DNA from: an uncultured bacterium
GTDB lineage: Bacteria; Bacillota_I; Bacilli_A; RF39; UBA660
Length of the DNA stretch: 64,000 bases
Direction of reading: 5' to 3'
NCBI GenBank assembly: GCA_947646655.1
Contig: CANSHI010000001.1
Span: 125,570 to 189,569 of the forward strand
This document shows positions 43,751-43,783 of this stretch, one piece after another. The first letter of the stretch is position 1. The number at the start of each line of letters is the position of its first letter. A program made the position numbers and the translations under genes. Below the pieces are notes generated by a model that did no database searches, was not told the DNA's origin, and saw only the letters and a list, made by a program, of their open reading frames with translations.

Positions 43751-43783
43751 ATTATACCACCCCCCCCCCCGGAGGGTTGTCAA
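43751..43783 (-). promoter_or_regulatory. Sigma-A-type promoter with an 11-nt homopolymeric G (coding strand) / C (plus strand) tract inside a 21-nt -35/-10 spacer: cTTGACAaccctccGGGGGGGGGGGtggTATAAT
   Basis: Direct reading of 43751-43783. It is homologous to the paralogue-1 promoter at 2570-2600, where the tract is G5 and the spacer is 19 nt. An 11-nt G/C run is extremely atypical in a genome of about 28% GC. Confidence 0.6.

What the first reader, a model, noticed from the sequence alone, without database searches (positions are those of the whole stretch)
43751..43783. 11-nt poly-G/C tract inside the -35/-10 spacer of a TasA-like gene promoter: a candidate phase-variation switch
On the coding (minus) strand the promoter reads cTTGACA-accctcc-G11-tgg-TATAAT, a 21-nt spacer. 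The homologous promoter of paralogue 1 (2570-2600) has the same -35 and -10 boxes but a G5 tract and a 19-nt spacer. A homopolymeric tract placed precisely between promoter hexamers is the architecture used for slipped-strand ON/OFF or volume-control switching of surface structures, for example Bordetella fim poly-C and Neisseria/Haemophilus promoters. An 11-nt G run in a genome of about 28% GC is very unlikely to be neutral. I know of no spore-forming Firmicute in which this has been described. Caveat: both promoters have a TGn extended -10, which can partly compensate for poor spacing.
Basis: partly seen in the sequence, partly recalled or inferred. Interest (0 to 1): 0.85.

Follow-up and report, generated by a model that had tools for sequence, protein, structure and literature searches.

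The report
Length-variable poly-G tract in a promoter
An uncultured, apparently spore-forming gut bacterium has a run of 10-14 G's, differing between samples, inside the promoter of one gene from a large secreted-protein family; this is the classic layout of a slippage-driven expression switch, but switching is not shown.

Summary
On the minus strand, TTGACA (43783-43778), a 21-nt spacer containing G11 (43770-43760), then TGG-TATAAT (43759-43751) precede a 517-aa gene. This is the only G/C run longer than 5 nt in the 64 kb. Paralogue 1 has the same hexamers, an interrupted GGAAAGGGGG and a 19-nt spacer.

New evidence: the same locus in two other assemblies, with flanks at least 99.5% identical, carries G10 and G14. 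All 5-6 A/T runs of 7-8 nt in the same stretches are unchanged. The G5 promoter of paralogue 1 is identical in a second sample. The tract is therefore real and length-polymorphic.

Three other family promoters have canonical 17-nt spacers. In this promoter G7 would give 17 nt, whereas the observed lengths give 20, 21 and 24. All observed states are therefore predicted weak or OFF.

The protein has a TasA-fibre-like N-domain and a head resembling the N-terminal domain of the Thomasclavelia ramosa IgA protease. It belongs to a large, recombining family.

Verdict: a plausible new member of the known promoter-spacer repeat switches (porA, tp0126, vlp). Length-dependent expression, reversibility and within-clone heterogeneity are untested. 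The extended -10 could make tract length irrelevant.

The parts
43760..43770 (-). Poly-G tract: G11 here, G10 and G14 in two other assemblies of the same locus
   Evidence: It is the only G/C run longer than 5 nt in 64 kb.
43778..43783 (-). -35 hexamer TTGACA (perfect consensus)
   Evidence: It is identical in L008 and L011 and conserved in paralogue promoter P1.
43751..43759 (-). TGG + TATAAT: extended -10 (TGn) and perfect -10 hexamer
   Evidence: The same TGnTATAAT is present in P1.
43715..43750 (-). Predicted 5' UTR with conserved TATAGGATA...ACTGAAAGGGA (Shine-Dalgarno-like GAAAGGGA at 43733-43726). The inferred transcription start is near 43744.
   Evidence: Sequence. It aligns with the 5' UTRs of P1, L027 and L029. 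The transcription start is inferred, not mapped.
42161..43714 (-). 517-aa secreted protein: signal peptide with an SYAYF motif, a TasA-fibre-like beta-sandwich domain, and a ~300-aa head domain resembling the N-terminal domain of the T. ramosa IgA protease
   Evidence: There is no Pfam or NCBIfam hit for this copy.
43830..44486 (-). 5'-truncated copy of the same gene family (equivalent to residues ~296-511), immediately upstream of the promoter
   Evidence: tblastn (69% aa identity). It is 83.5% nt identical to 42369-42826. Sequence.
44510..44537 (-). AT-rich hairpin plus T-run after sigE: a likely intrinsic terminator that isolates the promoter from upstream transcription
   Evidence: Read from the sequence. 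The G+C-biased scan did not flag it.
2570..2600 (-). Homologous promoter P1 of paralogue 1: TTGACA-19 nt-TATAAT with an interrupted GGAAAGGGGG. It is identical in a second sample.
968..2533 (-). Paralogue 1 (521 aa), with a recombination breakpoint near 2120 relative to another sample
41324..42100 (-). SigF/SigG-like sporulation sigma factor gene (called sigG from its position after spoIIGA-sigE). It lies 60 nt downstream of the gene, with no detectable terminator between them.
44541..45230 (-). sigE (pro-sigma-E), preceded by spoIIGA (45230-46006). This is the conserved anchor used to retrieve the same locus from other samples.

Best explanation
The G tract is a genuine, hypermutable simple-sequence repeat. 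It lies in the spacer of a sigma-A-type promoter with perfect -35 and -10 hexamers and a TGn element. That promoter drives one member of a large family of secreted proteins with a TasA-fold domain and a lectin-like head.

Replication slippage adds or removes G's, which changes the distance and angular phasing between the -35 and -10 elements. The observed alleles (G10, G11, G14) give spacers of 20, 21 and 24 nt and are predicted to be low or OFF. Contraction to G7-G8 would give 17-18 nt and a near-ideal strong promoter.

The locus would then act as a stochastic, heritable expression switch or volume control (a contingency locus) for a surface or extracellular protein.

Shown here: the architecture, the reality of the tract, its length polymorphism between near-identical strains, the 17-nt norm in sister promoters, and conservation of both hexamers.

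Inferred: the transcription start, length-dependent transcription, reversibility and selective value.
For: 1. The architecture is exact, and the tract is unique in 64 kb.
2. The same locus has G10 in L008 (ERZ14425210), G11 in the window and G14 in L011 (ERZ14425207). Flanks are 99.5-99.7% identical.
3. All 5-6 other homopolymers (A/T, 7-8 nt) in the same aligned stretches are invariant. The G5 promoter P1 is base-for-base identical in a second sample. This is the length dependence expected of slippage.
4. Other promoters of the family use 17-nt spacers: TTGACA-17-TATAAT (L006 gene 2), TTGCAA-17-TATAAT (strain B at the same sigE-sigG locus) and TTGAAA-17-TATAAT (L028). Spacing therefore matters in this organism, and G7 would restore 17 nt.
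5. P1 and P2 are 69% identical outside the hexamers, yet all 12 hexamer positions and the TG are conserved (P about 0.01). This argues that the -35 is under selection, and so is used at some tract length.
7. Differences between L008 and the window cluster in the 150 bp around the promoter and signal peptide (13 of 17 differences).
8. The mechanism is established elsewhere: vlp, maa2 and vmm in mycoplasmas (PMC2268961), and tp0126, tprE/G/J/L and porA (PMC7864442).
Against: - No allele with a 16-18-nt spacer was seen. All three consensus states are predicted to be poor.
- Only three samples were available, two of them at 3.5-4.3x coverage. The 80 nt after the G14 tract in L011 carry 4 substitutions and end the contig, so that count may be affected by read errors.
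- The same sample set shows a two-colour poly-G artefact at a contig end (L027).
- The related promoter P1 has a stable 19-nt spacer, and alignment shows the tract corresponds to P1's GGAAAGGGGG. The ancestral spacer was therefore about 19-20 nt, not 17.
- TGnTATAAT extended -10 promoters can work without -35 contact (general knowledge), which could make expression insensitive to tract length.
- A homopolymer next to a promoter is not sufficient evidence. The T tract at the M. agalactiae vpma promoter has no role in switching (PMC2268961).
- No transcription start, expression or read-level data are available.
Confidence: 0.5

Rival explanations
1. The tract is hypermutable but functionally inert. 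Transcription depends on the extended -10 (TGnTATAAT), or the promoter is weak at every length. Length changes are then neutral mutational noise in a tract that arose when the A's of an ancestral GGAAAGGGGG became G's.
For: Both P1 and P2 carry TGn. P1 works, or at least persists, with a fixed 19-nt spacer. The tract aligns to an interrupted purine run in P1. The observed lengths (10, 11, 14) look like a drift around long values, with none at the optimum. There is a documented inert T tract at the vpma promoter (PMC2268961).
Against: A perfect TTGACA is retained in both diverged paralogue promoters (P about 0.01 by chance), which is unexpected if the -35 is never used. Sister promoters keep a strict 17 nt. 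In other systems with perfect hexamers, spacer length strongly affects output (PMC7864442).
Confidence: 0.3
2. This is a long-spacer promoter that needs a DNA-distorting activator (MerR-like) or another dimeric regulator bound to a dyad in the spacer. The native spacer is 19-20 nt, and the tract modulates operator geometry rather than direct -35/-10 spacing.
For: The P1 spacer is 19 nt and is spanned end to end by a 6-bp inverted repeat, ATCACC-N9-GGTGAT. The P2 spacer has ACCCTCC ... GGGGGGT, 6 of 7 complementary. L008 has a 20-nt spacer. Spacers of 19-20 nt with a central dyad are the hallmark of MerR-family promoters (general knowledge).
Against: No MerR-type HTH motif is present in any frame of the window. 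The dyads are short, differ between P1 and P2, and are only weakly better than shuffles (z -2.1 and -0.95). G11 and G14 fall outside the MerR range. The only neighbouring regulator is an XRE-type HTH.
Confidence: 0.08
3. This is a sequencing or assembly artefact. Either the tract, or only its length differences, come from two-colour-chemistry poly-G calls, library PCR slippage or low-coverage consensus errors.
For: L027, from the same ENA sample set, begins with 51 C's, a typical poly-G artefact. L008 and L011 have only 3.5-4.3x coverage. The L011 tail after the tract carries 4 substitutions.
Against: The tract is internal, with matching unique sequence on both sides, in the 250-kb source contig and in L008, and on the 5' side plus 80 nt in L011. 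Poly-G artefacts sit at read and contig ends. Reversible-terminator chemistry does not systematically miscount homopolymers (general knowledge). No other homopolymer differs.
Confidence: 0.07
4. This is translational phase variation. The tract lies inside an N-terminally extended ORF that starts at the TTG of the 'TTGACA' (43783) and is in frame with the gene when the tract is G11 or G14.
For: The ORF 42161..43783 is open through the tract and in frame with the ATG at 43714.
Against: No ribosome-binding site precedes the TTG. All family members start at MEKNK/MKKNK with a signal peptide directly after. The 23-aa extension would bury the signal peptide. A Shine-Dalgarno-like GAAAGGGA precedes the ATG.
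Confidence: 0.02

Closest known systems
Neisseria meningitidis porA (poly-G) and Treponema pallidum tp0126 (poly-G): tracts between -35 and -10
   Same: A homopolymeric G tract sits in the promoter spacer of a surface-protein gene. Expression is maximal when the spacer is about 17 nt and falls as the tract changes by one or a few bases (PMC7864442).
   Different: Those are Gram-negative or spirochaete pathogens with experimentally mapped transcription starts and reporter data. Here nothing is measured, and observed lengths are 3-7 nt above the optimum rather than oscillating around it.
Mycoplasma hyorhinis vlp (also M. arthritidis maa2 and M. mycoides vmm) promoter-spacer repeats
   Same: A multigene family of variable surface proteins is involved. 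Each gene has its own promoter, in which indels in the -35/-10 spacer turn transcription ON or OFF (PMC2268961). These are the phylogenetically nearest examples (Mollicutes versus an uncultured Bacilli lineage).
   Different: In vlp the tract is poly-A (from my own knowledge); vmm uses TA repeats (from my own knowledge). The products are lipoproteins. Here only one of six family promoters examined carries a long uninterrupted tract. The organism carries sporulation genes, which wall-less Mollicutes lack.
T. pallidum tprE/G/J/L promoter poly-G tracts
   Same: A paralogous family of surface antigens carries poly-G in the promoter. Eight or fewer G's are permissive and longer tracts are silent, and lengths vary between strains (PMC7864442). 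This is the same direction as predicted here (short is ON, 10 or more is OFF).
   Different: The genome is GC-rich and poly-G is common there. The position relative to the hexamers differs.
Bordetella pertussis fim2/fim3 promoter poly-C
   Same: A homopolymer in the promoter of a fibre (fimbrial) subunit gene, with phase variation by slippage (PMC1891110).
   Different: In fim the tract separates an activator (BvgA) site from the -10 (from my own knowledge). Here a canonical -35 is present and no activator is known.
Bacillus subtilis TasA (tapA-sipW-tasA)
   Same: The N-terminal domain of the product has the TasA fibre fold and a similar signal-peptide motif.
   Different: tasA is a single-copy operon gene regulated by repressors such as SinR (from my own knowledge), not by repeats. 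This protein has an extra ~300-aa head domain, belongs to a large paralogous family, and does not reach Pfam or NCBIfam thresholds.
M. agalactiae vpma promoter T tract (negative precedent)
   Same: A homopolymer sits immediately next to the -10 of a variable surface-protein promoter.
   Different: It was shown experimentally to play no role in switching (PMC2268961). This illustrates that architecture alone is not proof.

Membership tests
Repeat-mediated promoter phase variation (contingency locus) | Long uninterrupted simple-sequence repeat (homopolymer of about 8 or more) | tested here: met
   G11 in the window, G10 in L008 and G14 in L011.
Repeat-mediated promoter phase variation (contingency locus) | Repeat located between functional -35 and -10 elements of the gene's promoter | tested here: inconclusive
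   Perfect TTGACA and TGnTATAAT flank the tract and are conserved in paralogue P1. No other promoter is evident, and the sigE terminator lies upstream. The transcription start is not mapped.
Repeat-mediated promoter phase variation (contingency locus) | Repeat length varies among closely related strains or populations while flanks do not | tested here: met
   Lengths are 10, 11 and 14 on flanks at least 99.5% identical. Other homopolymers are invariant, and G5 in P1 is invariant. Caveats: three samples, low coverage.
Repeat-mediated promoter phase variation (contingency locus) | Length heterogeneity within a clonal population, with reversible switching | not testable with these tools
   No read-level data and no isolates are available.
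Repeat-mediated promoter phase variation (contingency locus) | Expression depends on repeat length | not testable with these tools
   There is only an indirect argument: sister promoters use 17 nt, and G7 would give 17 nt.
TasA/camelysin family (Pfam PF12389 Peptidase_M73) | Profile match above the curated threshold | tested here: not met
   The target protein has no hit. Paralogue 1 scores 22.4 bits against a cutoff of 22.5. There are no NCBIfam hits. Some homologues carry a precomputed PF12389 hit.
TasA/camelysin family (Pfam PF12389 Peptidase_M73) | TasA-like beta-sandwich fibre fold | tested here: met
   [not shown]
MerR-type activator-dependent promoter | 19-20-bp spacer with a centred dyad operator | tested here: inconclusive
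   P1 has 19 bp with ATCACC-N9-GGTGAT. P2 has 20-24 bp with an imperfect dyad.
MerR-type activator-dependent promoter | Cognate MerR-family regulator encoded nearby | tested here: not met
   No MerR HTH signature was found in the six-frame translation of the window. The rest of the genome was not available.
Illumina two-colour poly-G artefact | Long G (or C) run at a read or contig end without matching sequence beyond it | tested here: not met
   The tract is internal, with concordant flanks in independent assemblies. L027's C51 at a contig end does fit the artefact.

The most novel reading that the evidence does not exclude
An uncultured gut Bacilli lineage that carries sporulation genes may run a contingency system on a large family of proteins with a TasA-fold fibre domain and a lectin-like head. 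A promoter poly-G slippage switch would be combined with recombination between paralogues and truncated silent copies, analogous to mycoplasma Vlp or neisserial systems. This would be the first repeat-based promoter switch described for TasA-type fibres or for an endospore-forming commensal.
Probability: 0.3. Interest if true: 0.62.

Novelty: new member of a known kind. Interest (0 to 1): 0.45.

Why it matters
If the tract does set expression, an uncultured gut commensal lineage varies an extracellular fibre or adhesin-like protein stochastically. Its head domain resembles part of the Thomasclavelia ramosa IgA protease.

That would extend slippage-based contingency loci, known mainly from pathogens and mycoplasmas, to spore-forming gut Firmicutes. 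In the best-studied spore-forming Firmicute, Clostridioides difficile, phase variation has so far been described through invertible DNA (PMC11868660).

It would also flag this protein family as host- or phage-exposed and under diversifying pressure.

There is a practical point too. Such tracts and the repeated family genes fragment metagenome assemblies: many contigs end within or next to these loci.

Tried and rejected
- **Exact-protein look-ups.** Look-ups for the gene and for its paralogues on the 250-kb contig (P0001, P0003, P0006, P0017) were not on record.
- **Anchoring on sigG.** This gave contigs too short to reach the promoter.
- **Anchoring on the spurious 70-aa ORF.** This ORF lies inside the upstream fragment. 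It returned only contigs already seen.
- **Metagenome scan.** The pattern GGGGGTGNTATAATGNNTATAGG returned two unrelated high-GC chance matches, so the species is absent from that collection.
- **Viral-contig scans.** One found an unrelated high-GC phage promoter with a 17-nt spacer and the other found nothing.
- **Genome-contig scan.** It returned only distant relatives (35-62% aa identity) with no G/C tracts of 8 or more.
- **N-terminal 150-aa search.** This was meant to find orthologous gene fragments and found none.
- **Rfam.** No RNA element lies near the locus.
- **Pfam and NCBIfam.** No family passes threshold for the protein. The PDB sequence search was empty.
- **MerR motif search.** Negative.
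- **Terminator reading of the C-rich/G-rich dyad.** Rejected, because no T-run follows it.
- **G-quadruplex.** Rejected, because a single G11 cannot supply four G-runs.
- **Other paralogue promoters.** L027 and L029 break exactly at the -10 box, so their spacers could not be read.

Full report
**1. Observation**

On the minus strand the sequence reads ...ctcattcTTGACAaccctccGGGGGGGGGGGtggTATAATggatataggataaaactgaaagggataattttaagtATG. The elements are:
- TTGACA at 43783-43778.
- A 21-nt spacer at 43777-43757.
- G11 at 43770-43760.
- TGG (the extended -10 TGn) at 43759-43757.
- TATAAT at 43756-43751.
- ATG at 43714.

The C11 on the + strand is the only G or C run longer than 5 nt in the 64-kb window. 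Its expected number is 2e-4 from composition and 3e-3 by extrapolating the run-length distribution.

The paralogue 1 promoter is TTGACA-TCACCTGGAAAGGGGGTGA-TATAAT, a 19-nt spacer with G5. These are the only two perfect hexamer pairs in the window at any spacing from 13 to 26 nt. Window GC is 31.2%, not 28%.

**2. The gene and the organism**

The gene 42161..43714 (-) encodes 517 aa. It begins with a signal peptide ending in an SYAYF motif.
- The target copy has no Pfam or NCBIfam match. Paralogue 1 just misses the camelysin/TasA family (22.4 bits against a cutoff of 22.5).
- An AlphaFold model built on 35 homologues has mean pLDDT 79.
- Foldseek's best solved match is the TasA fibre (8aur_A, E 2.7e-5), followed by archaeal donor-strand filaments.

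The product is therefore best described as a secreted protein with a TasA-fold domain and a lectin-like head. A role as a fibre or adhesin is inferred, not shown.

It belongs to a very large family. There were 3,564 hits, at least 8 paralogues on the same 250-kb source contig, and nearly all are from unnamed gut 'Bacilli bacterium' MAGs. The window holds three full copies and one 5'-truncated copy.

SecY has only uncultured 'Bacilli/Firmicutes bacterium' relatives. The gene sits between spoIIGA-sigE and a SigF/SigG-like sporulation sigma factor gene, called sigG here from its position. The lineage therefore carries sporulation genes.

**3. The decisive comparison: the same locus elsewhere**

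I used the exact SigE protein as an anchor. This retrieved contigs from other samples that are 99.5-100% identical to the window. Two of them cross the promoter:
- L008 (ERZ14425210) has G10.
- L011 (ERZ14425207) has G14.
- The window has G11.

In the same aligned stretches, all 5-6 other homopolymers (A/T, 7-8 nt) are unchanged. The P1 promoter with its G5 is identical in another sample, L006. Length instability is therefore specific to the long G run, as slippage predicts.

Caveats:
- L008 and L011 have 3.5-4.3x coverage.
- The 80 nt after G14 in L011 hold 4 substitutions and end the contig, so read errors may contribute.
- Contig L027, from the same sample set, starts with 51 C's, a two-colour poly-G artefact.
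- The tract itself is not such an artefact. It is internal, with concordant flanks in independent assemblies.

Thirteen of the 17 differences between L008 and the window lie within 43653-43804. They include an AAT indel, the tract, single-base changes and an in-frame 3-nt deletion in the signal peptide. The promoter and 5' end form a local hotspot of variation.

**4. How it most likely works**

Other promoters of the family have canonical 17-nt spacers:
- TTGACA-17-TATAAT (L006 second gene).
- TTGCAA-17-TATAAT, in a second strain type that carries a different paralogue at the same sigE-sigG locus.
- TTGAAA-17-TATAAT (L028).

In P2, G7 would give 17 nt. The observed G10, G11 and G14 give 20, 21 and 24 nt.

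P1 and P2 are 69% identical outside the hexamers, yet all 12 hexamer positions and the TG are conserved (P about 0.01). This suggests the -35 is functionally maintained.

The best reading is a slippage-driven switch or volume control. The observed states would be weak or OFF, and rare contractions would be ON. This matches porA, tp0126 and tprE/G/J/L (PMC7864442) and vlp, maa2 and vmm (PMC2268961). I give it a confidence of 0.5.

**5. What weakens it**

- No ON-length allele was seen.
- The alignment of P1 and P2 shows the tract corresponds to P1's interrupted GGAAAGGGGG. The ancestral spacer was therefore already about 19-20 nt.
- Both promoters carry TGn, which can bypass -35 contact.
- The T tract at the M. 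agalactiae vpma promoter was shown to be irrelevant to switching (PMC2268961).

The main rival, at 0.3, is therefore a hypermutable but inert tract.

A second rival, at 0.08, is an activator-dependent long-spacer promoter. The P1 spacer is spanned end to end by ATCACC-N9-GGTGAT, and P2 has ACCCTCC...GGGGGGT. However, no MerR-type motif is present in the window, and the fold statistics are weak.

An artefact (0.07) and translational phase variation through the in-frame TTG-started ORF (0.02; no ribosome-binding site) are unlikely.

**6. Comparison and novelty**

The architecture is that of well-known promoter-spacer repeat switches. Membership is met for repeat length and for polymorphism between strains. 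Placement between the promoter elements is met at the sequence level only, so I scored it inconclusive because the transcription start is unmapped. Within-clone heterogeneity, reversibility and length-dependent expression are untested.

This is a new member of a known kind, in an unusual host and gene family. My literature searches found no such switch for TasA-like genes or spore-forming Firmicutes. A recent review lists only invertible-DNA switches for Clostridioides difficile (PMC11868660). An absence of hits in the searchable library is weak evidence.

Interest is 0.45. The tract-length polymorphism is a real finding and is directly testable from public reads, but the mechanism would not surprise a specialist.

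Noticed in passing
window 43830-44486 (-): A 5'-truncated copy of the family gene (equivalent to residues ~296-511) lies between the sigE terminator and the poly-G promoter. It is 83.5% nt identical to the matching part of the full gene just downstream. It may be a silent donor cassette for gene conversion, or a remnant of a tandem duplication.
   Followed up: partly
window 968-2714 versus L006 1-1900: Paralogue 1 and its promoter are 100% identical between the window and an ENA contig from 2714 down to about 2120. Identity then drops to 65-80%, and the downstream genes differ. This indicates a recombination breakpoint inside the gene in otherwise near-identical strains.
   Followed up: partly
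L009, L010, L012, L015 (after sigE); L018-L020 (before sigG): A second strain type, 98-99% identical in the flanks, carries a different paralogue between sigE and sigG. It has a canonical TTGCAA-17-TATAAT promoter, no truncated copy and no G tract. The sigE-sigG gap is therefore a variable cassette site.
   Followed up: partly
L027 1-75; L029 1-45: Contigs of two other paralogues break exactly at the -10 box, where the tract sits in P1 and P2. L027 starts with 51 C's then GCTACAAGGGACATAGGATAAACTG. L029 starts TTACAATGGACTTAGGATAAACTG. This may be a two-colour poly-G artefact or a repeat-induced break, but a long tract there cannot be excluded.
   Followed up: no
window 42101-42160 (-): Only 60 nt and no recognisable terminator separate the stop of the TasA-like gene from the sigG start codon (42100). 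A strong ON state of the upstream promoter could therefore read through into sigG.
   Followed up: no
[not shown]
   Followed up: partly
window 29785-35065 (-): A 640-aa family member with a longer N-terminal region and an unrelated promoter (33143-35065) lies next to two proteins with Listeria-Bacteroides repeats (Flg_new) at 29785-31170 and 31268-32914. One of them ends in a hydrophobic membrane-anchor-like tail. Together they form a small surface-protein cluster.
   Followed up: no
window 43802-43804: An AAT unit (CTAATAATTT versus CTAATTT) is present in the window and L011 but absent in L008. This is a second small repeat polymorphism, about 20 nt upstream of the -35.
   Followed up: no
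L030 9-39 (IMG/VR contig, high GC): An unrelated phage contig has TTGACA-ACCCTCCCGTCTTGTGG-TATAAT. It shares the same 13-mer after the -35 and has a 17-nt spacer. This is a chance match.
   Followed up: yes
window 38914-38983 (-): A ribosomal protein L21 leader (Rfam RF00559, 39.8 bits) lies upstream of the rplU-rpmA genes. Three tRNAs are at 20786-20951 and 25559-25632. These are ordinary features.
   Followed up: no
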